Below are positions 47,928-60,589 of a DNA stretch of 64,000 nucleotides, piece by piece. The notes under the pieces are model-generated. The model worked only from the letters and a program-made list of their open reading frames with translations, did no database searches and had not been told where the DNA came from. The number at the start of each line of letters is the position of its first letter. Position 1 is the first letter of the stretch. A program made the translations under genes and the position numbers. This DNA comes from an uncultured delta proteobacterium (GTDB taxonomy: Bacteria > Desulfobacterota > Binatia > Binatales > Binataceae), in the NCBI GenBank assembly GCA_963842085.1, contig CAWJET010000001.1, forward strand, positions 1,440,001 to 1,504,000, given 5' to 3'.

Positions 47928-50324
47928 TCACGGCTTCACGCTCAATTCGTCGAGCAGCGCTTTGGCGTCTTTCAGGTCGGCGGTGTCGAAGCCTTCGGTG
48001 AATTGCCCGTAGATCCCGGCGAGCATCGCGCGCGCCTCGTCGTGCTTGCCTTGTTTCGCGAGCAGGCGCGCGAGGCTCATCGTCGCGCGCAGCTCGAATC
48101 CTTTCGAGCCCATGCGCCGGGCGACGGCAATCGCCTCCCGGAAATCTCCCGCCGCCTTGGTTTCGTCGCCGCGCTTCAGATGCAACTCGCCCCGCCACCA
48201 CAACAGGCTAGGCAAATAGATCTGCTGTTCTCCAACGACAGAGAAGGCTTGCTCGATAGTTGCGAGCGCCTCCTCCAGTTGACCCGCGCGCGCCTGCGCC
48301 TCACTCAAAGCTCGGAACAACTCTGGCAAACCCAACCTGATGCCGAGCGTCGCCACGGAATCGAGTCCGGCGCGAATCAGCGCGATGCCTTCGTCAGTCC
48401 GACCCTGCTCGGCCATCGCCCAACCGCGATAAACCGAACCGGAGGCCGCCCATTGTGGGAGTTGTTGTTCGCTCGCGAGAGTGGATAGGCGTTCCGCGAC
48501 TTCCCGCACGGTGCCGGGCTCGCGAAGCTTCATGTAAAAACCGCTTGCGGTTCCGAGCGAGACCGCCAGACTCCCGGGCCTCTTCAAGCGCTCGGACAAG
48601 GAAATGGACTCACGAATTTTCGCTCGCCCCTGATCGCTGTTCCCCAAATGCCACAACACCGAGGCCATACAACAGAGCGCGTCGACATGAGGATTCCAAA
48701 CGTCCCCGGACCAGTCGCTCTCGTTGTATGACGCGATCGTCGCCTCGAGATGTTGCATCGCCTGGGTCAGCTCTCCGCGATAATAGAAGGATAGCCCCTG
48801 AGTAGTGGCCATACTCAGGCCGTAGCGAATCCCGCTGCGCTGGGCAATCTCCATCAATTGTTCCGCGATCTGCAGCGCGGCAGTCATTTCGCCCTGGAAA
48901 TAGGCCGCGGCCCAAGCGGCCCGCAACGCGTTTATGACTTGCTCCGGGTTGCCAGTCTTTTCGCCCAGCTCCCGCAAGTGTCTGGCCGCCCGCACAGTCT
49001 CATCCGTGGCGAAGCCGCGCGTACCTGCGAGCACCTGCCAAAGCGCGAACTGGAGATTGAATTCGCGGTTTATCCGCTCGGGAGTCTCGGGAGTCGTGCT
49101 CAGCGCAGCGATCGCCTGCTTCAGACAAAGCTCGGCTTCCTTGAGTGCCCCGCACTTGATTGCCTGCCGGCCGGCGCGGTCGAGGTACTCGACCGTTTTT
49201 TCGGTGTTCGAGCTGCGCGCGTAGTGATGAGCCAGCTCGGCGCAGTAATCTTCCAACCCCGCGGAATAGGTTCGCTCGATTGCGTCGGCCACCTCGAGAT
49301 GGAGCCTCTGGCGCCGCGCCGCCGATAAACCGCCGATCACTGCCTGGCGAACAAGCTCGTGAGAGAACTGAAAGCGGGCCTTGGGACTCTCCGCGACTGA
49401 GAAAAGCAGCCCCGCCTTTTCGGCTTCCTCGATGCACTTCAGAATCGAATCCTCATTGGCTGCGCTCGCGCGCGCAAGAATTTCAAAACTGAACAAGCGT
49501 CCAATCACCGCCGCCGTGGCGAGCATCTTTTGTGTCAGGTCGGTCAGCCGCGCCAGTCGCCGTGCGACCACCAGCCGAACGCTCGGCGGCGCCTCCAGCT
49601 CGCCGATCTCGAGCTCCGAACGAAACCGGCCGGCCGAGTCGTATAGCCGATTTTCCTCTTCGAGATGGCGGAACAGTTCCTCGACGAAGAAAGGATTTCC
49701 GTCAGTCTCCGCGTATATCTCGCTTACCACCGCGTCCGGCGGCGATTTTCCACTCAGGCTCTTCAGCATCGCGGCCACTTCATCACGCGGCAGGCCCTTG
49801 AGCCTCACCTGAGTTGCAAGCCGTCCGCGGAGTAAATCTTCGAGCGTCTTCGCCAGCCCGCCGGTCACATTGAGCCCAGCGTCACGGTAGGTGCCGACCA
49901 GCAGCAAGGGCAGATCGGAAAGCCTCTGCGTCAGGTGATCGAGCAGCGACAACGTCGAATCGCCGCTCCAGTGAAGGTCCTCGAGAACAAGTAGCAGCGG
50001 CTGCTCGCGAGCCACGCGCACTATGAAGTCGCGGTAACAGTTGAATAGCTGGCGCCGCGCCTGAGCTGGCGGCAAATCGAGCGGTGGTGGAAGCCCCGGC
50101 AAGATGTTCTTAAGTCTGGGTAGTAAGCGCGCCAACTCCGGTGCCTGCTCTCCCAGTGCCGTGCGCAGAGCGTCGGGGGTTGATGCACGATCGATGAAGT
50201 TCTCCAGGATTTCCACGAACGGCAGATAGGCGACGGCTTCGTCGCGCTCGGAGCAATGCCCGACAAGCAGCGCCATTCCCTTTGCATCAGCCAGGAGCGC
50301 AAGGCCCGCGCGCAGCGTAGCCAC
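47928..50324 (-). pseudogene. 5'-truncated STAND/AAA_16 ATPase-TPR protein
   Basis: Walker B LLLVLEDLHW, GNPFF, FSHELVR and GFDTADL C-terminus are present; Walker A and the N-terminal effector domain are absent. Confidence 0.75.
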
Positions 50325-50382
50325 GCTGGACGGAGCGGAAGGCCGCAGAGAAGATACCTGAACGCGATGCTCTGGGTGGAGT

Positions 50383-51606
50383 CTATCTCGCCAATTTATG
50401 GAACAACACTACTTCTTGGCTGGCTGGCGTTTTTCCTAGCTGGTCCGCGTGCCACTTACGATTAGGCACCGGCCTCCAGAGTCGGCCATCGTGCTCGTTG
50501 GCCATTATCGACAGCTGAATTTCCTCAAGGCCAGCCACGTTGTTCGCTTGGAGATACCGAGGCAGTTGCCACCAGGGTTCCGAAAAGGCGACGACCTGTA
50601 CCACAGTAGTATCTTCATCGCAGAGTCCGGCTATTGAATTCAGGGCAGCCTGCATCTGTTCGAAGTAGCTCCGTAGATTTGCAGCTTTGCGGTCGCCCAT
50701 GGAATAGAAGGCAGCTCCCGAACCATCGAGACGGTTAGCGATCCAAAATGGTGCCGGCGTTTCCTTGCGACCGTCCACTTGCCAGCGATGATAGAGAACG
50801 TGGATGCCTGGATAAGGTGGAGAGGTCAGAATCAGCTTCGGCTTTGCGTGATGCGGTATCTGTTGGTCATTTCCCACGTCTGCTGCGGACTTGTTTAGGC
50901 AACGAACGCTAGCGAGCCTACCGAGATTTTCACCTACGGCTGTTCGCAACTCACGAAGGCCGCCGATCATTTCCTTCGCCGACCGCATGAGCGATTCCCG
51001 GAACTCTTGAACGCCCGGTAGGCTCTTGCGACCATCGAGAGCCCGCTGCGCAGCTTTGAGAACAACACATCGCGCGAAAGCCTCCAACCTGGGCGAAGCA
51101 AGCTGGACAGCCGATGCAAGCGCTTGCTCGATCGCCTTGCGAAGACGCCACGTCATCCTGTTATCGAGATGACGATGGTAACCATTTTTCGCGTATTTTT
51201 CGAAATTGAAACCGGGGCGATGCATATCGACATGCGAGCGCAAACGCTTCGCCCACCGCTCCAGCATCTTGATTTCAGCATCTCTCAACAGGGTTGTTTT
51301 CACCTGAGCTACGAATACGGCTAGGGAACTAACATCTGTTCCGATAGCGTGGCGGCCTAGCGCAAGAGCCTCGACTAGAGTAGTTCCGCCTCCCATAAAC
51401 GGATCGACTATCAGATCACCGGGTGCAGTAAAGGCTTCTATCGCGGCCCGAACAAACTTCGGTGAGAACCTGGCCGGATACTTATAGAAGTTGTGTGTGA
51501 AACCGGAGACGTGTGCCGAATCTCGAGCAGCCTCCACAATCCGACGCTCCCACGCGCGGGTAGTGACATCCGACCCGTTCCTTCCTTCCCAGCTGACGAT
51601 GTTCAT
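50383..51606 (-). CDS. Orphan amino (probably N4-cytosine) DNA methyltransferase
   Basis: H..YKYPARF, DPFMGGGTT (motif I), TSPPY (motif IV). Confidence 0.88.
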   Translation of the reverse strand: MNIVSWEGRNGSDVTTRAWERRIVEAARDSAHVSGFTHNFYKYPARFSPKFVRAAIEAFTAPGDLIVDPFMGGGTTLVEALALGRHAIGTDVSSLAVFVAQVKTTLLRDAEIKMLERWAKRLRSHVDMHRPGFNFEKYAKNGYHRHLDNRMTWRLRKAIEQALASAVQLASPRLEAFARCVVLKAAQRALDGRKSLPGVQEFRESLMRSAKEMIGGLRELRTAVGENLGRLASVRCLNKSAADVGNDQQIPHHAKPKLILTSPPYPGIHVLYHRWQVDGRKETPAPFWIANRLDGSGAAFYSMGDRKAANLRSYFEQMQAALNSIAGLCDEDTTVVQVVAFSEPWWQLPRYLQANNVAGLEEIQLSIMANEHDGRLWRPVPNRKWHADQLGKTPASQEVVLFHKLAR

Positions 51607-51800
51607 GGTCTTGGTCGCCTCACATGAAAAAGAGGCATGTCGTCTGCGAGGAGTCGCTCAATTGCTTCGCGAACCATCCAAGCAGTAGAGACTCGATTCC
51701 TCCGGGCTAGCGCGAGCAACTCAGCGTGCTGTTCGCCCGACAAACTTACGGAGAGTCTTCGACTTTTCCTGTCCAGCGATTTGCGACGTGGAGACGACAT
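51603..51800 (-). CDS. Ribbon-helix-helix (CopG-like) regulator
   Basis: RLSVSL strand followed by two helices (STAWMVREAIERLL); ATGA overlap with the MTase. Confidence 0.8.
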   Translation of the reverse strand: MSSPRRKSLDRKSRRLSVSLSGEQHAELLALARRNRVSTAWMVREAIERLLADDMPLFHVRRPRP

Positions 51801-51808
51801 TGAAAGTG

Positions 51809-51862
51809 TGCACCATTCTGCAATCGGTGCGTGAATGCGTTACTTTACACCACTCTGGTGCA
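51809..51862. promoter_or_regulatory. Candidate RHH operator repeats
   Basis: CACCA(T/C)TCTG direct repeats at 51811 and 51848; TACACCA-CTC-TGGTGCA palindrome. Confidence 0.5.
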
Positions 51863-51949
51863 TACCTCAACTACCATCGTTCTTGATACGGTCATTCATT
51901 ACTCGCGGAATCTTCGATGGAGCCACCACCACGCAGTCATGGCCCAGCC

Positions 51950-53854
51950 TGCGCGGCGTCAACCATTTCTGCCGGACGCATTGACTCACGATTTTTGTTA
52001 CCGGGTCGGTGGTGGTTGCCTCACGTAGACTGCTACCCAGCAGCGGAGCCGCTGCGGGGTGGTGGGGGAGATGGCGAGGCAACTGAGGATGGCAACACGC
52101 CGGGAACTGAAGAACGCAATTGGAGAACGGTATCAGGCGACAACAGAGCGGTGCGAGCGGCGGCAGATTTTGTCCGAGTTCGTACGCGTAACCGGGTATC
52201 ATCGGAAACACGCGCTGCGCGTGCTGAATCAACCGCTGGCGGTGCGAAGCCGCGGGGCGCGGGGGCGGCTGTACCACGAGGCGGTACATCAAGCACTGAT
52301 GGTCCTGTGGGAGGCCAGCGATCGCATCTGCGGGAAGCGGCTTCGGGTTCTGATCCCGGTGCTCATCGACGCTATGGAGCGTCACGGCCATCTCGCGCTC
52401 GATCCGATGGTAAGAAGCAGGCTCCTGGATGTCAGCGCCGCCACCATCGATCGGCTGCTCCAACCGCAACGCGAAGCGGCAGGACGCGCGCGGCGGCGGC
52501 GCTGGGGCGCGGGTTCGGCAATCAGGCAGAGCGTGCCGGTGCGGATCTTCGCCGATTGGGGCGACCCTCCGCCGGGTTATTTCGAGTGCGATATGGTCGA
52601 GCACTGCGGCGGAATGCAGGAAGGCGGCAACTTCGTTCATACGTTGACCCTGACCGATATTCACAGCGGCTGGACCGAATGCGCCGCCCTTACGGTGCGC
52701 GAACAGAGTCTCGTGGTGGAAGGAATCGGCGCCATCGCCCAGCGCCTTCCATTCGCGCTGCGCGGCCTCGATACCGACAACGACACCGCCTTCATGAACG
52801 AGACGCTGCGCAGGGCTATTGCGACCGCCAGCGCATCGAATGGACCCGGTCGCGCTCTTACCACAAGAACGATCAGGCTTGGGTCGAGCAGAAGAACGGC
52901 GCGGTGGTGCGCCGGCTCGCGGGATACGGGAGATTGAGCGGGCTTGCCGCGGCCGCGACGCTCCAGCGCCTGTACGAGAGCGCGCGCCTTTATGTCAATT
53001 TTTTCCAGCCGTCGTTCAAGCTGGCGAGCAAGCAACGCCACGGAGCGCAGGTGAGTAAACGCTACCAGCCGCTCACGCCGTACCAGCGGCTGCTGGCCTC
53101 CGATGCAGTCGAGGAGACGGTTAAGCAACACCTGCGCGCGCAGTTTGCTGCGCCCGACCCGGTGGCGCTCCTGGAGACCATCCGCGAGGCACAGCAAGAG
53201 TTGCTGGCGTTGAATCATGAGGACCGCACGTCCGCCGCTACGGCGCAACCGCGGTATTTCGCTGCATTCGCGACCGCGTGGCACAGCAATAACCGCGCGC
53301 CCAGCGCGCGGAGAAAGATGGCCGCCAAGCACTGGTGGAGAACCCGCGTCGATCCGTTCGCGGAAAGTTGGCCACTCGTGGAAGGCTGGCTCGCGGCGGA
53401 ACCGAATATCGCCGGCAAGGAACTTATGTTGCGGCTGACCAATCAGCTTCCAGATCTTTATCCCACCGGCGCCCAACTTCGCACCTTGCAGCGGCGAGTG
53501 AAGGCCTGGCGCGCACAGTGGGCGCGCCATCTCGTGTTTGCCTGCAGCGCCGCTGCTCGAGCGGAACACGAAGCCGGCGTAATCCCAACCGAGACGATCT
53601 CGGCTCGCTGACGGACTAGATCTGGATCCAAGAAAGAAGTCCGAGGAAATGGGAACCGAGCTAATCGCCGCGATTGACAGCGCGAGGCCGAGAGAAGCAG
53701 CGTGCCCACTGAGCGCCAGTGGCTTTTCACGCGGACGGGCGAGAAGGGGCAGCCCCTCCTCGCGCTCCACCCCAGGACGGAACAGTGACGATTATCGGGG
53801 AGTAACATTTTTGGTTGAGGCAACACGACCGGCAGATTTAATTGTCGTTGATCA
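51950..53854 (+). mobile_element. IS21-like element with TG...CA ends, a single transposase ORF and no istB
   Basis: Imperfect terminal IRs plus internal TTG(A/C)CTCA...TAC repeats; 7-bp TSD CCCAGCC at 51943-51949 and 53855-53861. Confidence 0.82.
52071..53611 (+). pseudogene. DDE (rve-type) transposase, frameshifted near 52810
   Basis: TGYHRKHA, ECDMVEH, DTDND in one frame; KNDQAWVEQKN and LRTLQRRVK in the next. Confidence 0.85.
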
Positions 53855-54087
53855 CCCAGCCCTATGAGCTGACGATGAAGCCCGTATCCGCATCCACCGG
53901 CCTCATAAGCGTAGAGCACGCTCGGGTACAACCGGCCAATCTTCCGCGCTAACTTGATTACCGCTGCGGCCTCGTTACGAATCTCGCCTAGAAACCGAAC
54001 TTCGCCGCTGCGGCCCTTTTCGGCAACTGCGATCGCGATGCTCTCTTTGTGAACGTCCAGACCGACAAACGCGTTATGATCGCCCAT

Positions 54088-54193
54088 GGCCCGTCCCCTA
54101 TGCGTGAGGTTAGGTGCCAGCTCCATCGCCGGCGCAACCCTCGATACCGCATAGCCGGTGACGGGCCAACCCGTTCATCCGGTCATATCGTCT
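54088..54193 (-). ncRNA. IS110 5' non-coding end, structured (candidate bridge-RNA region)
   Basis: Nested hairpin GGCCCGTC/GACGGGCC, CTATGCG/CGCATAG closing just before the ATG; guides not resolved. Confidence 0.5.
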
Positions 54194-54309
54194 GCTGCTC
54201 CTCCGTGAAGCGGCTTCCTTTCATTGCCCGTCTCCTTTTCAGGCGACGGACTCTACCTCATTTCGGCGTAGTTTTCGGGGTGCATGTATGGACCCAGCCC
54301 CGTGCGCAA

Positions 54310-54530
54310 GGCTGTCGCTCCGACGATCTGATATCCGGTTGCAGGCATGTATCCGGCCTCTCGAATGGAACATGGTTGGTGTTCCGGGCCATGATGGATA
54401 TCCGCACGTCTTCCACTCGTCAGGCCATCGGCCTCATGGGCCTTGCACCCCAACAGGTTTGGAAAACGCCGGTCCGACCGGCTCGCCATCAGCAGACAAC
54501 CTTCGCAACTCCTTGGCAAGTTTTTTCCCG
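54310..54530 (-). ncRNA. Bridge/seek RNA of the IS1111-group element (boundaries approximate)
   Basis: Target guides at 54444-54451 and 54421-54427 and donor guides at 54391-54397 and 54346-54352 match the reconstructed target and the circle junction. Confidence 0.8.
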
Positions 54531-54539
54531 GCGGCCCCC

Positions 54540-55561
54540 TCAGGCGGCAGCCGGGACGCGGTACTCTTCAGCGCGGGTGAGCAACGCCCACACCACTCGC
54601 GCGTTCTTATTGGCCAACGCTACCGCCGCGATGTTTGACCCGCGTCGTTCCTTGAGCTTTTCAACCCAACGGCTGCGTGGGTCGCGTTTGCGCGCGACGT
54701 GTCGCAAAGTCGAGCGCGCCCCATGGATTAGCAATGTGCGTAGATAGCGATCGCCGCGCTTGCTGATACCAAGCAGCACGGTGCGCTCGCCGCTCGAGTG
54801 CTGGCGCGGCACCAGTCCAAGCCACGCACTCAGCTCCCGCCCGCTGTGGAACTGCCGAGCATCGCCCACCGCTGCTATCATCGCCGTAGCTGTCAACGGG
54901 CCGATTCCCTCTACCGCCATTAGCCGAATCGCTCGTTCGTCCGCGCGTGCCAGCCCTGTGATACGCAGGTCATAGCGCCTGAGCCGCTCCTCGAACAGCC
55001 GCAGGCGCTCGCTCATCTCGGAAAGTATCTCACGCAAGAGATCGCTCACCCGGGCTTCGTGGTCCGCGACGATCGTCGCTAGCGCCCGGCGCAGCGCGAG
55101 TGCTCCCTGCGCAACTACGACCCCGTATTCGGCCAGCAGTCCGCGCATCTCATTCATCAGCGCCGTCCGCTCGCGGATCAGTAACGATCGCACCCGATGT
55201 AGTGCCATCATGTCCTGTTGCGCCTGGCTCTTGATCGCGACGAAGCGCATCGACGGCCGCCCCACCGCCTCGCAGATCGCTTCCGCGTCCCGCGCATCAT
55301 TCTTGTTCGACTTCACATAGGGGCGGACGAACCGCGGACTCATCAACCTGACTTCGTGCCCGAGCTTGGTCATCTCGCGCGCCCAGTAGTGCGCGCCGCC
55401 GCACGCTTCCATCCCCACCAAGCAGGGTTGAAGCCGAGCTTGAACGATAACAACTGCCGGCGCCGCAGCTCGCGCTGCACCACGGTCTTTCCCCGACTAT
55501 CGACCCCGTGCACTCGAAACACGTTCTTTGCCAAGTCGATACCCAACGTTCTAATGTTCAT
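54540..55561 (-). pseudogene. IS110-family DEDD recombinase with a 1-nt frameshift near 55440
   Basis: GIDLAK, MEAC, KNDARDA (DEDD) and QHSSG catalytic Ser are present; frame break at LLSF/ARLQPCLVGME. Confidence 0.9.
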
Positions 55562-55815
55562 CTTCAGACCCTCCCTCGCTCATCGTCGTGATGGCGTCTG
55601 CCATCCTGGCCCATTTAGAGGCCGCATAGAAAAGCGAGGGCTGGGTCCATCCCATCAGGCCAAAAGCCGCGAAGCGTGCGGCGCGATCAATCCTCACAGA
55701 CCAAGCGCGGTCTTCATTGAAGCAAAGAGCCTTCTTCGAGCCGGAGTATATACTTGACGCAAATCAGGGGTTGGGTACGGCGGAACCGCGTGGAATGAAA
55801 ACTGAGACTGTCAGA

Positions 55816-56127
55816 TCAGAGATTGTACCAAGCGGTGTGAAGCGCGTTCAGAGCGTTCAGGAGCGTTTGCGGTGGAGCCGACTCTGCGGCAAGGGCATCC
55901 AGCATCGGTTGAGTCAAATTCTGTTCAATATGTTTGAGACGCGCTGCGCTGATGTGGCCCGAACTGAACTCATCAATAAGGGCTTGGAGCAACGAGATCA
56001 GAGAACCATAGAGAGCGGGACGCTGGAAAAAGTGCTGTTCAACCAGCTGCAGCAACTCGCGAAGATTGGTTTCGTAGAGTCCGCTTTTGATCAGATTTTG
56101 CGCTTTTGCCTTTATCGCCGGGTCCAT
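55816..56127 (-). CDS. Hypothetical alpha-helical protein (103 aa)
   Basis: Amphipathic-helix composition; overlaps the 3' end of the pyrE-like gene by 89 nt; start uncertain. Confidence 0.55.
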   Translation of the reverse strand: MDPAIKAKAQNLIKSGLYETNLRELLQLVEQHFFQRPALYGSLISLLQALIDEFSSGHISAARLKHIEQNLTQPMLDALAAESAPPQTLLNALNALHTAWYNL

Positions 56128-56686
56128 CAAAATTTCTAAGATCGCTGAGCGTGAAAAGAGCGTGAAATCTAACGCCCATCGCTTCAATATTCTTACGACC
56201 GTTTGATTCTTCGCGATCCACCATCGCAATTACGTGATCAACCTTCAAACCAGCCTGCCGAACAGTCTCTATTGCTTGAATTGCAGAGCTGCCCGAAGTA
56301 ATCACGTCATCGACAATCAGCACGCGGTCGCCCGATTTCGTGTCTCCGGCAATCAACGATGTTATTCCATGCTTTTTGTGATCCTTCCGAACAACGAACA
56401 CTCGAATCTTTTTCCCAGTGTCTCTGTAAATCTTGTCCGAGACGGAAGTAGCGATCGGGTAGGCCCCAAGCTCCAATCCCCCGATGGCATCCATCGGCAC
56501 ATGACCGAGCTTCTCAACGATTAAGGTCGCAAGGCAATCGCGCGTTTCTGGATCGGACAGGCCCTTCTTGCAGTCAACGTAATATTTGCTATCGATCCCT
56601 GAAGCGAGGTGGTAGATCGGAGCATCGCTCTCCAAATACGACGTGCGCCTAAGGATTTCGAGCAACCTGCGACGTTCTGAAGCCAT
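56039..56686 (-). CDS. pyrE: Orotate phosphoribosyltransferase-like type I PRTase (island-borne)
   Basis: LASG..SKYYVD, GGLELGA, VRK..K.HG, LIVDDVITSGSS PRPP loop, VDRE; GGAGG RBS before ATG 56686. Confidence 0.85.
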   Translation of the reverse strand: MASERRRLLEILRRTSYLESDAPIYHLASGIDSKYYVDCKKGLSDPETRDCLATLIVEKLGHVPMDAIGGLELGAYPIATSVSDKIYRDTGKKIRVFVVRKDHKKHGITSLIAGDTKSGDRVLIVDDVITSGSSAIQAIETVRQAGLKVDHVIAMVDREESNGRKNIEAMGVRFHALFTLSDLRNFDGPGDKGKSAKSDQKRTLRNQSSRVAAAG

Positions 56687-56827
56687 TGACCCCTCCGCCT
56701 CCACAGCCTTCTTCGGCAGGTTTGTCATTGTGATTGGGCGGATATTATTAGAATCGGTAATCCAAAAGCAACCAAGCACAAGCTATCAATACACAGGAGC
56801 TTGCGCTCTGTGGATAATAGTACGGCG

Positions 56828-57040
56828 TTAGTCGGATTCGGGCCAGCCCTCAGCAGGACGCTTCTTCTTCAATGATTCCTCGATTGCGTCCTTCCAATTG
56901 CCTTCGAGTTTCAGAATCTCCGGCTAGGGTCCAGGCGTCTTTTTTTCCCGGGCTCGTTTTTGCTTTCACGGGATCGGCGTCGCTAACAGTTTCTCGAACA
57001 TCAGACGCTTGCGGTCGGCCTGGACCTGATCTGTGTCGCG
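56828..57040 (-). pseudogene. Decayed IS1595-like transposase C-terminus plus a coupled small ORF
   Basis: ...ADRKRLMFEKLL..* overlaps the GTG of MKAKTSPGKKTPGP*PEILKLEGNWKDAIEESLKKKRPAEGWPESD (one extra A, one TAG). Confidence 0.5.
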
Positions 57041-57561
57041 CAAATGGTCCGCCAATACCGCATTTGTAGACTGCCACGCTATGAGTCATCAGGTGCGAGC
57101 CGTCGAGTTTTTTCGAGGAAATGCACCTGGGGGGGAAACGGGACCGTGTTGCCCGCTGTGCGGTGGCGAGATTCAACGGGAATCCAGAATTGAGGCATCT
57201 GTAGAAATCCGGAACAGTCGATCAATCCTAACTAGGCTGTGCTGTAGGGACCCTCGGCAAGAATCGGTATCGCTCAGCTACCTCTGCCCAGGGCCTCGGT
57301 TGACATGGAGTGACGCGGAGCGATGCCAGCCAATACCGACGAAAAACGCCAATTCCGCTACTCTCATGCAAGAGGTCCCTGGTTCGGTGCGTTCGCCAAC
57401 ACAATTCCTCACGCATGGCATGAAAAGTCCTGTAGCGTTCAGCAGTCGAGCGCGTAACTGTTGAAAGCAGTGAACCCATGCTCCAGCCAAGTCCTTGCAG
57501 CTTCGTGCCGCCGCCTACATCACGCCTACATGAGTGTCGCTTTGGAACCATAGCGATGCGC

Positions 57562-57574
57562 TAAGTATTTGATT
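57562..57574 (-). promoter_or_regulatory. IHF-consensus site beside att
   Basis: TAAGTATTTGATT is the reverse complement of WATCAANNNNTTR. Confidence 0.55.
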
Positions 57575-57578
57575 TTAT

Positions 57579-57655
57579 TGGTGGAGCTGAGCGGGATCGA
57601 ACCGCCGACCTCCTGAATGCCATTCAGGCGCTCTCCCAAACTGAGCTACAGCCCC
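57579..57655 (-). tRNA. tRNA-Ala(GGC)
   Basis: GGGGCTG acceptor with G3:U70, D arm GCTC/GAGC, anticodon loop ATGGCAT, TTCGATC T loop, encoded CCA. Confidence 0.97.
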
Positions 57656-57712
57656 ACCGCGGGCGAGACTTTTCAGCTAATCGGATACCGTGCGTGGAGT
57701 CAACCGACCTGT

Positions 57713-58813
57713 TCAGGCGAAGCCGTAAAGCGCTGCGACATTTTCCGACGTCATCAGCCGGCGCTCGTCGTCGGGCACACCTTCGAAGTCGCGTGCGATG
57801 ACCGCGAGTGAATTCGGCCAGGTCGAATCCGAATGCGGAAAGTCCGATCCCCACATCAGGCTCTTGACGCCGATAAAATGCCGCGTCACCACGCCGACGC
57901 GATCGTCCTGAAACGTCGCCGCAACCTGCCGCCGAAAATAGTAACTGGGCGGATTCGCAATCGCCGTTTTCTCCAGGTAGCGATACTTCTCGTACGAATG
58001 GTCGAGGCGTTGGAGAAAATGCGGAATCCATCCGATATCGTTTTCGACCGATACCAGCCTGAGCTTGGGGAAGCGTTCGAGCACGCCGGCAAAAATAATT
58101 TCGGTGAGCGATCGCTCGACCGAATGATGCAGCGACGGGTAGCCTTTCATCACGCTTTGAAAATCGCTGCCGCCGCGCCGCTCGGTCAGGATGTGCAGGC
58201 TGATCGGCGTTCCGAGATCGTGCGCCGCCGCCCAAAATGGATCGTATGACGGGTCGCTGTAAGGACGCTCTGCCGGCGCGGCGCCCCAAATCATCGCGCC
58301 GCGCAGACCCTTGTTCGCCGCGCGCCGAAGTTCCTCGACTCCTTCGAGCGGATCGTCGAGCGAAATCATCGCGACTCCCGCCAGGCGCCGCGGGCAATGC
58401 GAACAATAGTCGGCCAGCCAGTCGTTGTACGCGCGGAAGCTGGCGGCGCGCAGCTCACCGTCTTCCATTTGAAACAGGCGCATCCCGAGACTCGGGTACA
58501 GCACCTCGCCCGAAACGCCGTCGCGCTCCTGGTCTTTTATTCGGAGATCGGGATCCCACGCGCTCGGACGAACGCCGGGGTAACCGCCCGCCATCTTTTC
58601 GGCAAAGTCCCTGGGATCGACGCCGGCGACCGCGAATCCCGCAACCGGGAACGGGCGGAGTCCTTCGGCAACAAAGAAATCGCCTTCGCGACTACCGGCG
58701 CGCTTGATAACGCGCGGCGCTCGGTCGAGAAAGCGCTTGTCAATTCGCGCGGTCCACACGTCGGCGGGCTCGATCACGTGGGAATCCGCGGACAGGATTT
58801 TCTGCGCGTCCAT
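57713..58813 (-). CDS. Amidohydrolase_2 family protein
   Basis: SADSHVIE, EVLYPS, SLH, VEND.GW, WGSDFPH. Confidence 0.9.
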   Translation of the reverse strand: MDAQKILSADSHVIEPADVWTARIDKRFLDRAPRVIKRAGSREGDFFVAEGLRPFPVAGFAVAGVDPRDFAEKMAGGYPGVRPSAWDPDLRIKDQERDGVSGEVLYPSLGMRLFQMEDGELRAASFRAYNDWLADYCSHCPRRLAGVAMISLDDPLEGVEELRRAANKGLRGAMIWGAAPAERPYSDPSYDPFWAAAHDLGTPISLHILTERRGGSDFQSVMKGYPSLHHSVERSLTEIIFAGVLERFPKLRLVSVENDIGWIPHFLQRLDHSYEKYRYLEKTAIANPPSYYFRRQVAATFQDDRVGVVTRHFIGVKSLMWGSDFPHSDSTWPNSLAVIARDFEGVPDDERRLMTSENVAALYGFA

Positions 58814-58891
58814 AGCTGGGTCCTCCTCTCCAATTAAGCGGGAGCCTGATCGCCGTTTAGCGCCGGGGACGAAGCGGCGTCAAGCGCGCGG

Positions 58892-60589
58892 TCATTCCCG
58901 GGCGCGATCGAGCAGCTCGCGGGCGGCGCGGCGGAATTTGTCGGACACTTCGCCGCCGAGCATGCGCGCGATCTCCTCGGTGCGATCGCCGGGTTCCAGA
59001 ACCGCTACGCGGCTGCGCGTCGTCCCGCGTCGCTCTTCCTTTTCGACCGTGAGATGGCGGTCCGCGAACGCAGCGATCTGCGCGAGGTGCGTAACACACA
59101 AAATCTGGTGAAAGCGCGAAAGCTGTTTCATCTTGCGGCCAACCACCTGGGCAACTGCGCCGCCGATTCCGGCGTCCACTTCGTCGAAAATCATGGTGGC
59201 GACGCCGCGGCGCTGCGCCTCGAGGCGCTTGAGCGCGAGCATCACGCGTGAAAGCTCGCCGCCCGAGGCAATTCGGAGCAGCGGCATCGCAGGCTGGCCA
59301 ACGTTCGGCGAGAGATGAAACTCGACCGTATCGATACCGAACGGACCGAGCGCCAGGCCGCCGTGCACGAATCCGGCTTCGTCCGGGTCGAGCGCGCCGA
59401 GCCGCGGCTCGAACCCCGGCGAGCGCATCCCGAGCGTCTTCAATTCGGCTTCCATCTTGCGACCGAGCTCGGCGGCGGCGCGGTGGCGAATCGAGGAAAG
59501 TTTATTTGCGTGCGCGGCGAGTTCGTCGAGCGCCGCCGCCATCGCGGCTTCGACCTGCGCCTTTGACTCGCCAATTCCTTCGAGCTCGCCAATCTCGGCC
59601 CGAGATCGCTCCAACGTCTCGAGGGCAGTGTCGATTGACCCGCCGTATTTGCGCTTGAGCCGCGTCAGTTCCTGCAGGCGGTTGTCGATTTCCTCGAGGC
59701 GTGCGGGATCGGCCTCGACTTTGGACGCATACGCGCCCAGCGTGCGCGCCGCTTCCTCGAGGTTCGCGCGGGCCGACTTGATCATCTCGAGTGCATCGCC
59801 AAGTTTCGGGTCGAGCGCGGCCGCGTCGACCAGTCGCGCCTCGGCCCGCGAAACTGTGTCGGTCGCAGCGCCATCGGCGCCGTAGAGCGCCTGCTCGGCC
59901 TCGAGCGCAGCGGCAGCGAGCTTGCCGGCGTTCGAGAGCACGGTTCGCTCGCGCGACAGCGCTTCATCTTCGCCGGCGACGAGGCCGGCGCGCTCGAGTT
60001 CGCTGGTGCGGAACCGTGCGAGTTCCAGCAAATCCGCGCGTTCACGCTCGCGGCGATTCAGTTCCTGAAGACGGGATCGGACTTCTTCCGCGCACACATA
60101 GCGTTCGCGATAGGACGCTAGTTCGTTGTCGAGGTTTGTATAACGATCGAGAATCTCGCGATGGCTCTCGGCGCGGAGCAACGAATGCTGCTCGTGCTGC
60201 CCGTAGACCTGGACCAGCGACGCGCCGATTTTACCGAGGCTCTGCACGGTGGCAAGTTCACCGTCGATTGTCACGCGCGAGCGCCCGCCGCCCTCTGCGA
60301 TCACTCTGCGCACGAGCAGCTCCCGGCGGCCGCCGTTGGTTTTGCGGGCCGCCAGCTCAGGCAAAGCAGCCTCGCCTTCGAGTTCGAACAGTCCCTCGAC
60401 GACCGCTTCCTTCTCGCCGGCGCGAATCATATCGGGCGACGCGCGCGAGCCGAGCAGCAATCCGAGCGCGCTCAGGATGATCGTCTTGCCGGCGCCTGTT
60501 TCGCCGGAGAGCACGTTGAGGCCGGCGCCGAACTCGAGATGGGCTTCCTCGATTATCGCGAAGTTGCGGATGTGCAGTTCGAGCAGCAT
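58892..60589 (-). CDS. recN: DNA repair protein RecN
   Basis: GETGAGKT Walker A, GQHE, coiled coil, ASGGELSR, IFDEVDAG, VTHL. Confidence 0.97.
   Translation of the reverse strand: MLLELHIRNFAIIEEAHLEFGAGLNVLSGETGAGKTIILSALGLLLGSRASPDMIRAGEKEAVVEGLFELEGEAALPELAARKTNGGRRELLVRRVIAEGGGRSRVTIDGELATVQSLGKIGASLVQVYGQHEQHSLLRAESHREILDRYTNLDNELASYRERYVCAEEVRSRLQELNRRERERADLLELARFRTSELERAGLVAGEDEALSRERTVLSNAGKLAAAALEAEQALYGADGAATDTVSRAEARLVDAAALDPKLGDALEMIKSARANLEEAARTLGAYASKVEADPARLEEIDNRLQELTRLKRKYGGSIDTALETLERSRAEIGELEGIGESKAQVEAAMAAALDELAAHANKLSSIRHRAAAELGRKMEAELKTLGMRSPGFEPRLGALDPDEAGFVHGGLALGPFGIDTVEFHLSPNVGQPAMPLLRIASGGELSRVMLALKRLEAQRRGVATMIFDEVDAGIGGAVAQVVGRKMKQLSRFHQILCVTHLAQIAAFADRHLTVEKEERRGTTRSRVAVLEPGDRTEEIARMLGGEVSDKFRRAARELLDRARE

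What the first reader, a model, noticed from the sequence alone, without database searches (positions are those of the whole stretch)
54283..55662. IS1111 bridge RNA with four readable guides, programmed against an IS3 terminal inverted repeat
Seen: excising 54285-55657 gives the empty target TTCGGGGTG-CA-GGCCA (+ strand) and the circle junction CCCAT-CA-TGTAT. The 3' non-coding end, read on the recombinase strand, carries four segments in order. GGGGTGCA (54451-54444) equals left target plus core. After a GGCC-catga-GGCC hairpin, TGGCCTG (54427-54421) is the reverse complement of core plus right target. CCATCAT (54397-54391) equals left donor plus core. ATACATG (54352-54346) is the reverse complement of core plus right donor. 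Known: this is the target-loop/donor-loop layout of IS110-family bridge (seek) RNAs, which IS1111 members encode downstream of the recombinase; IS4321/IS5075 target Tn21 IRs. Inference: this element is RNA-programmed to hit the first ~13 bp of an IS407-group IR, making it a transposon-targeting RNA-guided recombinase with a CA/TG core.
Basis: partly seen in the sequence, partly recalled or inferred. Interest (0 to 1): 0.88.

Follow-up and report, generated by a model that had tools for sequence, protein, structure and literature searches.

The report
RNA-guided IS inserted in IS3 end
This is a frameshifted copy of an IS1111-type insertion sequence whose own non-coding RNA carries short guides matching the tip of another insertion sequence (IS3 family), a correct reading that adds a new target to an already known mechanism.

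Summary
Window 54285-55657 (minus strand) is a 1373-bp IS1111-type element. It has a DEDD/PF02371 transposase broken by a one-base frameshift, 13-bp subterminal inverted repeats and a 255-nt 3' non-coding region. It sits between bases 5 and 8 of the terminal inverted repeat of an IS3-family element. Two unoccupied copies of that repeat end exist in the same genome.

A consensus structure from 20 relatives places the four reported segments in two internal loops closed by covarying stems. Across 10 target classes the two target guides covary with the flanks (52 of 60 and 47 of 50 positions, against cross-class means of 2.3 of 6 and 1.5 of 5).

Of 20 metagenome contigs with the same target loop, plus the window and one genome copy, 17 of 18 intact right junctions read TGC[A/T]CCCC. 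Thirteen of 14 left flanks end in TGGCC, and IS3 genes lie beyond. The RNA model also hits the 3' region of IS5075 and IS4321.

The mechanism (bridge RNA/seekRNA) is published. So are targeting of transposon inverted repeats (IS4321/IS5075) and of IS3 elements (ISEc21). I therefore rate this a new member of a known kind, of moderate interest.

The parts
54285..55657 (-). IS1111-type insertion sequence, 1373 bp including one copy of the TG core
   Evidence: Boundaries come from the empty sites and from alignment with paralogs and relatives. Relatives measure 1373-1381 bp.
55656..55657 (-). Core dinucleotide TG at the left junction (CA on the plus strand). The second copy is at 54283-54284.
   Evidence: TG flanks both ends here and in most relatives. 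Both target guides end on it.
55658..55662 (-). Left target: the 5-bp tip TGGCC of the IS3-family terminal inverted repeat
   Evidence: Thirteen of 14 copies with the same guides have TGGCC here.
54195..54284 (-). Rest of the IS3-family left inverted repeat (TG-CACCCCGAAAAC...) and the first 10 codons of orfA (MKGSRFTEEQ). The right target CACCCC is at 54277-54282.
   Evidence: 99% and 98% identical to the ends of the copies at G000:C2 and G000:C1. The C2 copy encodes HTH_Tnp_1 and rve/rve_3.
55638..55650 (-). Left subterminal inverted repeat ATGGACCCAGCCC, preceded by the 7-nt extension TGATGGG
   Evidence: The 7/3 geometry matches that described in the PMC11187229 introduction.
54288..54300 (-). 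Right subterminal inverted repeat GGGCTGGGTCCAT, followed by the 3-nt extension ACA (54285-54287)
55442..55561 (-). Transposase, N-terminal frame (ATG at 55561). The frame breaks between 55441 and 55440.
54540..55441 (-). Transposase, second frame to the stop codon. It holds the DEDD_Tnp_IS110 and Transposase_20 domains and the GLVPRQHSSG motif.
   Evidence: Pfam E-values 5e-12 and 3e-24. 40-41% identical over 98% of its length to transposases annotated IS5075/IS4321.
54338..54483 (-). Bridge/seek RNA core (match to model R1, 140 bits)
54443..54461 (-). Target loop, 5' side. The guide GGGGUGCA (54444-54451) is complementary to the top strand of core plus right target.
54430..54442 (-). GGCC-CAUGA-GGCC hairpin that splits the target loop
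   Evidence: Conserved in 20 of 20 sequences
54414..54429 (-). Target loop, 3' side. The guide UGGCCUG (54421-54427) equals left target plus core and so pairs with the bottom strand.
54462..54469 (-). Stem A, 5' arm GCGUUUUC. It pairs with 54406-54413 (GAAGACGU) and closes the target loop.
   Evidence: Five of its 8 pairs show changes on both sides.
54391..54402 (-). Donor loop, 5' side. CCAUCAU (54391-54397) is complementary to A-TG-ATGG of the circle junction.
54344..54354 (-). Donor loop, 3' side. AUACAUG (54346-54352) equals the right-end tip plus core.
   Evidence: ACA versus ATA covaries with the right-end tip across the family.

Best explanation
Window 54285-55657 is a degenerate copy of an IS1111-group insertion sequence (IS110 family, DEDD recombinase). 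Its 3' non-coding region encodes a bridge RNA (seekRNA).

Shown here:
- The RNA core (54338-54483, minus strand) has two internal loops closed by covarying stems.
- In the target loop, GGGGUGCA is complementary to TG+CACCCC, and UGGCCUG is identical to TGGCC+TG.
- In the donor loop, CCAUCAU is complementary to the junction A-TG-ATGG, and AUACAUG is identical to the right-end tip plus TG.
- The element sits in one orientation between bases 5 and 8 of the terminal inverted repeat of an IS3-family element (TGGCC-TG-CACCCC...).
- Relatives with the same guides sit at the same place in either inverted repeat of IS3-like elements.

Inferred by homology to ISEc11, ISKpn4, ISPa11 and IS621:
- The element excises as a circle joined right end-TG-left end.
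- The recombinase-RNA complex pairs each loop with both strands of target and donor, and exchanges strands at the TG core.
- Insertion separates the IS3 tip from the rest of its repeat and should disable that end.

This copy has a one-base frameshift in the recombinase gene and is the only copy in its genome. It is most likely immobile on its own.
For: - **Domains and layout.** Pfam DEDD_Tnp_IS110 plus Transposase_20. A 13-bp subterminal repeat with 7-nt and 3-nt extensions, and a 255-nt downstream non-coding region, as PMC11187229 describes for IS1111.
- **Empty sites.** Two in the same genome.
- **Structure.** 96.8% of cells paired against 36-48% when the partners are slid. Eight pairs and 35 cells change on both sides. 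0 of 500 shuffles reach the observed values. All four segments lie in the loops.
- **Guide-flank covariation, 10 target classes.** First guide against right flank: 52 of 60 own, cross-class mean 2.30 of 6, 1 of 50,000 permutations reaches it. Second guide against left flank: 47 of 50 own, cross-class mean 1.47 of 5, 0 of 50,000. With an eleventh class from an unpublished genome the figures are 57 of 66 and 47 of 50.
- **Same-guide copies.** 17 of 18 intact right junctions read TGC[AT]CCCC. 13 of 14 left flanks end in TGGCC, with 11 distinct outer 12-mers. Right flanks encode IS3 orfA in 4 loci, or the orfB C-terminus on the opposite strand in 5.
- **RNA homology.** Model R1 hits full length just downstream of the transposase in IS5075 (52.8 bits) and IS4321 (52.1 bits). 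In IS5075 the first-guide position reads AAAACGGAA, the reverse complement of its own right flank TTCCGTTTT.
- **Relatives are intact.** Seven of 7 relatives checked (6 with the same guides plus L016) have ORFs of 340-358 aa.
Against: - There are no expression or binding data. No RNA run was available, and no circle or excision joint was seen in contigs.
- The single-sequence fold is not better than shuffles (z = -0.70), and that minimum-energy fold differs from the consensus.
- The 5' donor guide hardly varies because the left end is conserved. In some classes (for example the paralogs, CCAUCUG) it does not cover the core.
- Seven of 17 same-guide right junctions read TGCTCCCC, which is one mismatch to the guide.
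- Two classes fit poorly with the automatic boundaries: L030 scores 1 of 6 and L040 scores 2 of 5.
- The recombinase gene is frameshifted, so nothing can be said about activity of this copy.
Confidence: 0.9

Rival explanations
1. The copy is not dead. Its own RNA and ends are intact, so it could be moved in trans by the recombinase of the three intact paralogs in the same genome (about 69% nucleotide identity).
For: Paralogs with ORFs of 361-363 aa are at G000:C1:550454, G000:C1:3241033 and G000:C2:1664630. The left end TGATGGGATGGACC is identical between them and the window element. PMC11187229 section 9 states that a seekRNA is not strictly confined to closely related transposases.
Against: There is only one copy of this element in the genome. 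Two empty targets remain unoccupied. No excision or circle joint was seen in contigs of 4 runs, though contigs cannot show rare forms.
Confidence: 0.12
2. Target choice is made by the protein alone. On this view the four matches in the non-coding region are leftovers of end or target duplication and have no guiding role.
For: The right-end tip and the 3' donor segment share ATACATG, which a duplication could produce. The single-sequence fold is not significant.
Against: The guides change with the flanks across 10 target classes while the recombinase ends stay the same. They sit in loops closed by stems with compensatory changes. Homologous RNAs have been shown experimentally to be required and reprogrammable in ISEc11 and others (PMC11187229 abstract and sections read).
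Confidence: 0.03
3. The order of events is reversed. On this view the IS3-family element inserted beside or into a resident IS1111-type element.
For: In L022 and L141 an IS3-like repeat start directly abuts the right subterminal repeat, and the right-end tip is missing. This looks like IS3 insertion into the other element.
Against: In the window the IS3 repeat is split exactly into TGGCC and TGCACCCC... around the element. The uninterrupted repeat exists twice in the genome. The same split occurs with 11 different outer flanks.
Confidence: 0.02

Closest known systems
[quoted passage not shown]
   Same: They share the recombinase family: 40-41% identity over 98% of the fragment. The RNA is homologous and lies directly downstream of the transposase (R1 scores 52-53 bits). 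The guide sits at the same model position and matches the flank. The target is the terminal inverted repeat of another mobile element.
   Different: The target here is the first 13 bp of an IS3-family insertion sequence, not a 38-bp Tn3-family repeat. The host is a soil bacterium, not an enterobacterial plasmid. The Tn21 target of IS4321/IS5075 is known to me only from the title of Partridge & Hall 2003, seen in reference lists. That paper was not held.
ISEc11, ISKpn4, ISPst6, ISPa11 seekRNAs (Siddiquee et al. 2024, PMC11187229)
   Same: The non-coding region lies downstream. Subterminal repeats carry 7- and 3-nt extensions. The segment complementary to the top strand lies 5' of the bottom-strand match, and the two matches overlap at the insertion point.
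   Different: Their targets are a linear site, attC sites and REP sequences. Here the donor loop can also be read. No experiment exists for this element.
IS621 bridge RNA (Durrant et al. 2024, PMC11208160)
   Same: It has a two-loop RNA with a target-binding and a donor-binding loop. Each loop reads both strands around a 2-nt core.
   Different: IS621 belongs to the IS110 group and its RNA lies in the left end. According to PMC11187229, guide order is reversed between the IS110 and IS1111 types. That IS621's core is CT is from my recall; here the core is TG.
ISEc21 (IS110 type; targets a conserved stretch inside IS3-family transposase genes; PMC11187229 section 12)
   Same: It is an RNA-guided IS110-family element whose natural target is an IS3-family element.
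   Different: [quoted passage not shown] This element hits the tip of the inverted repeat. They belong to different subfamilies with different RNA positions.

Membership tests
IS1111 group of the IS110 family | DEDD (RuvC-like) N-terminal domain plus PF02371 C-terminal domain | tested here: met
   Pfam PF01548 E = 5e-12 and PF02371 E = 3e-24 on the 293-aa frame
IS1111 group of the IS110 family | Subterminal inverted repeats of about 11-13 bp with asymmetric extensions (7 left, 3 right) | tested here: met
   The 13-bp repeat ATGGACCCAGCCC, with extensions TGATGGG and ACA. The criterion is taken from PMC11187229.
IS1111 group of the IS110 family | Long non-coding region downstream of the transposase | tested here: met
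   255 nt downstream against 96 nt upstream
IS1111 group of the IS110 family | GL-P----S(T)G motif and a transposase of 330-350 aa | tested here: met
   GLVPRQHSSG is in the window ORF. Four of the 7 intact relatives checked are 340 aa; the other three are 348, 348 and 358 aa as measured from the first in-frame M. The window copy itself is frameshifted.
IS1111 group of the IS110 family | Site- and orientation-specific insertion without a target duplication beyond the shared core | tested here: met
   17 of 18 right junctions and 13 of 14 left junctions are at the same site, and the orientation is the same in all.
Bridge RNA / seekRNA | [quoted passage not shown] | tested here: met
   Consensus structure with covariation. 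The segments lie in the loops.
Bridge RNA / seekRNA | Guides covary with the flanking target across relatives | tested here: met
   52 of 60 and 47 of 50 own positions against 2.30 of 6 and 1.47 of 5 cross-class. At most 1 of 50,000 permutations reaches these values.
Bridge RNA / seekRNA | The RNA is transcribed, binds the recombinase and is required for transposition | not testable with these tools
   No RNA run was available for this stretch. No experiment could be done.
Rfam family for this RNA | A match to a curated covariance model | tested here: not met
   In window 50000-60000 the only match at E <= 1 was a tRNA. Rfam 15 gave no match for this RNA.
IS3 family (the host element) | orfA with HTH_Tnp_1, orfB with an rve integrase core, and terminal inverted repeats starting with TG | tested here: met
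   L122: HTH_Tnp_1 E = 9e-27; HTH_21, rve and rve_3 also found, with orfB frameshifted. The repeats read TGGCCTGCACCCC... and TGGCCTGCTCCCC....
   No ISfinder reference was at hand. The only hint is a 4-bp TTGG repeat around the relic at G000:C1:1628624-1628734. That IS407-group elements make 4-bp duplications is from my recall.

The most novel reading that the evidence does not exclude
IS3-family elements of this soil lineage may be systematically parasitised by RNA-guided IS110-family elements that aim at their most conserved sequences. The locus shows two unrelated lineages doing this. One hits the inverted-repeat tip (this finding). The other hits the orfA codons EEQ|II (window 53830-54194; same site in L145). 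A 111-bp relic suggests both tips of one IS3 were hit. If insertion disables the IS3 end, these elements act as natural suppressors of IS3 spread while using IS3 copies as safe, mobile landing pads.
Probability: 0.3. Interest if true: 0.6.

Novelty: new member of a known kind. Interest (0 to 1): 0.42.

Why it matters
The locus offers a clean natural example of guide reprogramming. One genome holds two related elements with the same ends but different guides: one aims at the IS3 repeat tip, the other at a REP-like palindrome. One bacterial family holds at least 10 target classes. This gives a ready covariation set for working out the IS1111-type guide code, which is less studied than that of IS621.

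It also adds the terminal repeat of an insertion sequence to the list of natural targets. Together with the second element in the IS3 orfA, it suggests that RNA-guided IS elements often live on other IS elements. The mechanism itself is not new.

Tried and rejected
- **Rfam.** A scan of window 50000-60000 gave only a tRNA.
- **Single-sequence fold.** 54285-54530 is no better than shuffles (z = -0.70), and its minimum-energy structure is not the consensus. I relied on the alignment instead.
- **Promoter and terminator scan.** 54200-55750 gave no promoter-like site and one terminator-like site inside the coding region, within the shuffle expectation.
- **Sequencing runs.** No RNA holder was listed.
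- **Laid contigs.** Contigs of 4 soil runs showed no circle junction and no excision joint. The loose ends at 54284 that continue GGCCACC... are other, unoccupied IS3 copies, not this locus. Contigs cannot show rare forms.
- **Literature on the target.** Searches for IS1111 plus IS407, for IS110/bridge RNA/inverted repeat/other insertion sequences, for IS5075/IS4321 with seekRNA or bridge RNA, and for IS110 family plus IS3 family plus terminal inverted repeat found no paper describing an IS1111-type element aimed at an IS3-family repeat. They did surface ISEc21. Partridge & Hall 2003 was not held. Supplements are closed. Durrant Supplementary Table 5 and the Siddiquee target logos could already list such a target.
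- **Host subgroup.** A tblastn of the host orfA against plasmids returned only the label 'IS3 family transposase', so the subgroup stays open.
- **Second element's RNA.** Model R1 did not hit L145, so that RNA is a different family.
- **Rejected idea.** I considered that the frameshift is an assembly error. Independent contigs agree with the window, so I rejected it.

Full report
**What is there.** Window 54285-55657 carries, on the minus strand, an IS110-family recombinase gene in two frames. The ATG is at 55561, the frame breaks between 55441 and 55440, and the stop is at 54540. The long frame has Pfam DEDD_Tnp_IS110 (E = 5e-12) and Transposase_20 (E = 3e-24). It also has the motif GLVPRQHSSG. 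It is 40-41% identical over 98% of its length to transposases annotated IS5075 and IS4321, and up to 59% identical to unnamed IS110-family genes.

The ends, read on the recombinase strand, are TG-ATGGG-ATGGACCCAGCCC ... GGGCTGGGTCCAT-ACA-TG. This is a 13-bp subterminal inverted repeat with a 7-nt left and a 3-nt right extension. There are 96 nt upstream and 255 nt downstream of the gene. That is the IS1111 layout described in PMC11187229 (sections 4 and 6 read) and PMC11208160 (passages read).

**The observation.** The predicted empty target is not hypothetical. The 90 bp left of the element recur at G000:C1:1572380-1572469 and G000:C2:1571861-1571950, and both copies continue ...GGGGTGCAGGCCA before diverging. 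TGGCCTGCACCCC occurs exactly twice in the 4.93-Mb genome, both at those ends. In 200,000 shuffles of the non-coding region the four segments never occurred together.

**The host element.** The C2 copy (L122:1281-2656, 1376 bp) starts TGGCCTGCACCCC... on the orfA side. On the other side it starts TGGCCTGCTCCCC.... It encodes an 88-aa HTH_Tnp_1 protein and a frameshifted HTH_21/rve/rve_3 protein. It is therefore IS3 family. The IS407 subgroup label was not tested.

In the window only the 5-bp tip (55658-55662) and 90 bp (54195-54284) of this element remain. The insertion lies between bases 5 and 8 of its left repeat, with TG as the shared core.

**RNA structure.** The single-sequence fold is not significant (z = -0.70). 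A family-level search found the element or relatives in 50 of 165 genomes of the same family.

RNAalifold on 20 downstream regions (A1) gave the following features, listed 5' to 3'.
- A conserved hairpin (CCGGUC..ACCGG).
- Stem A (window 54462-54469 with 54406-54413), which encloses a loop split by a GGCC hairpin.
- Stem B (GCG/UGC plus GGCC/GGCC), which encloses a second loop with a variable hairpin.

On the pruned structure, 96.8% of cells pair, against 36-48% when partners are slid. Eight pairs and 35 cells change on both sides, and 0 of 500 shuffles reach these values. The four segments fall in the two loops as follows.

| Segment | Window position | Loop span |
|---|---|---|
| GGGGUGCA | 54444-54451 | 54443-54461 |
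| UGGCCUG | 54421-54427 | 54414-54429 |
| CCAUCAU | 54391-54397 | 54391-54402 |
| AUACAUG | 54346-54352 | 54344-54354 |

**Covariation with the flanks.** The same genome holds three intact paralogs (about 69% identity) in a REP-like palindrome. Their first guide reads CCACACACA against a right flank TG-TGTGTGG. Their second reads GAACCUG or GAGCCUG against left flanks such as GGAACC-TG. Their 3' donor segment reads AUAUAUG against a right-end tip ATATA-TG, where the window has AUACAUG and ATACA-TG.

I took one representative for each of 10 target classes and excluded the core.

| Comparison | Own flank | Cross-class mean | Permutations reaching the observed sum |
|---|---|---|---|
| First guide vs right flank | 52 of 60 positions | 2.30 of 6 | 1 of 50,000 |
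| Second guide vs left flank | 47 of 50 positions | 1.47 of 5 | 0 of 50,000 |

One search, which adds an eleventh class from unpublished G017, gave 57 of 66 and 47 of 50. Two classes fit badly with automatic boundaries. L030 scores 1 of 6, and its right end appears 2 nt longer, which would give 6 of 6 by eye. L040 scores 2 of 5.

The 5' donor segment varies little because the left end is conserved. In several classes it does not cover the core.

**The lineage is aimed at IS3 ends.** An exact-pattern scan of metagenome contigs for the window's target loop returned 20 contigs. I pooled these with the window and L013, a full copy in another genus.
- 18 have an intact right end, and 17 of those are followed by TGC[AT]CCCC: 10 by TGCACCCC and 7 by TGCTCCCC.
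- The exception, L125, abuts an inverted left-end tip plus GGCCA.
- 14 have a left end, and 13 of those are preceded by TGGCC. They carry 11 distinct outer 12-mers, so these are many independent insertions.

Beyond the right junction, tblastn finds the IS3 orfA reading inward in 4 loci. It finds the orfB C-terminus on the opposite strand in 5. Both inverted repeats are therefore used. Seven of 7 relatives checked (6 with the same guides plus L016) have intact ORFs of 340-358 aa, so the lineage is alive elsewhere.

**Link to known elements.** A covariance model of the RNA core (R1, 147 positions, 23 pairs) scores 140 bits on the window. It hits full length downstream of the transposase in distant relatives, among them IS5075 (52.8 bits) and IS4321 (52.1 bits). 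In IS5075 the first-guide position reads AAAACGGAA, the reverse complement of its own right flank TTCCGTTTT. The nearest named records with relatives are soil MAGs labelled uncultured (delta)proteobacterium or Candidatus Binataceae.

**State of this copy.** The frameshift is one base short against 10 of 10 aligned relatives. It is present in contigs from 4 soil runs of 2 studies, one of which is possibly the source. This is the only copy in the genome. I read it as an immobile relic whose RNA and ends are still intact. Mobilisation in trans by a paralog recombinase is possible but unsupported.

**Comparison and novelty.** RNA guidance in IS1111 elements is published (PMC11187229, PMC11208160). 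NCBIfam already names the family 'IS110 family RNA-guided transposase'. IS4321/IS5075 aim at transposon repeats; I know this from the paper's title only. ISEc21 aims at IS3-family transposase genes (PMC11187229 section 12). Four literature searches found no description of an IS1111-type element aimed at an IS3-family repeat. Supplements and ISfinder were not visible. I therefore file it as a new member of a known kind.

**Seen in passing.** The IS3 remnant is cut a second time. From 54194 downward lie the left end and the first 72 or so codons of another IS110-family element (NF033542, E = 9e-10). It sits right after the orfA codons MKGSRFTEEQ.

In G077 (L145) an 84%-identical element lies at the same codon of a diverged IS3 orfA. 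Its junctions read GAGGAGC-AG-ACGATATGACCGG and CCGGTCATAAG-AG-ATCATCGG. Its 3' region holds CCGATGAT (the reverse complement of the right flank) and GAGCAGA (the left flank plus core).

A 111-bp relic at G000:C1:1628624-1628734 reads TTGG|TGGCC-TG-left end...inverted left-end tip-CA-GGCCA|TTGG. This is what would remain of an IS3 hit in both repeats after loss of the interior.

Noticed in passing
window 53830-54194 (minus strand); L145:1494-2977: A second, unrelated IS110-family element (NF033542 fragment) cuts the same IS3 remnant right after the orfA codons MKGSRFTEEQ. In another genus (G077) an 84%-identical element sits at the same codon of a diverged IS3 orfA. That copy has a 9-bp subterminal repeat, an AG core, and 3'-region segments matching both flanks. 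The window copy is truncated and has lost its RNA.
   Followed up: partly
L006 (G000:C1:1628624-1628734): A 111-bp unit reads TGGCC-TG-left end (about 93 nt)-inverted left-end tip-CA-GGCCA and is flanked by a TTGG direct repeat. It looks like the relic of an IS3-family element whose two repeat tips were both hit, with everything between them deleted.
   Followed up: partly
L002, L003, L004 (G000:C1:550454-551814, C1:3241033-3242394, C2:1664630-1666051): Three intact paralogs (about 69% identity, ORFs of 361-363 aa) have the same left end but different guides. They are inserted in a REP-like palindrome GTGTGTGGCGAATT...AATTCGCCACACAC. This is natural reprogramming within one genome.
   Followed up: partly
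L022, L141, L015: In three same-guide copies the right-end tip is missing. An IS3-like repeat or IS3 interior abuts the right subterminal repeat directly. This may be IS3 insertion into the IS1111-type element, or a rearrangement.
   Followed up: no
L125; L132 vs L139: In L125 the right end abuts an inverted left-end tip plus GGCCA. L132 and L139 share a left flank but have different right flanks (the two repeat types). This may be recombination between copies or chimeric metagenome assembly.
   Followed up: no
L068:2101-2247, L069:2099-2242, L100:2091-2236, L080:2096-2245 and others: In alphaproteobacterial relatives a second full-length R1 hit lies just upstream of the left end. Their right flanks (TCCACACATG...) resemble a right-end tip. 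This suggests tandem or self-adjacent insertions.
   Followed up: no
window 52059-52937 (+), 57582-57655 (-): A weak IS481-like ORF (NF033577 E = 1e-4, rve E = 1e-4) lies next to the IS debris. A tRNA gene (62 bits) lies about 2 kb from the element.
   Followed up: no
L007 (G000:C1:3193182-3193239): A solo 58-nt left-end fragment (90% identity) is preceded by GTCGCC instead of TGGCC and followed by unrelated DNA.
   Followed up: no
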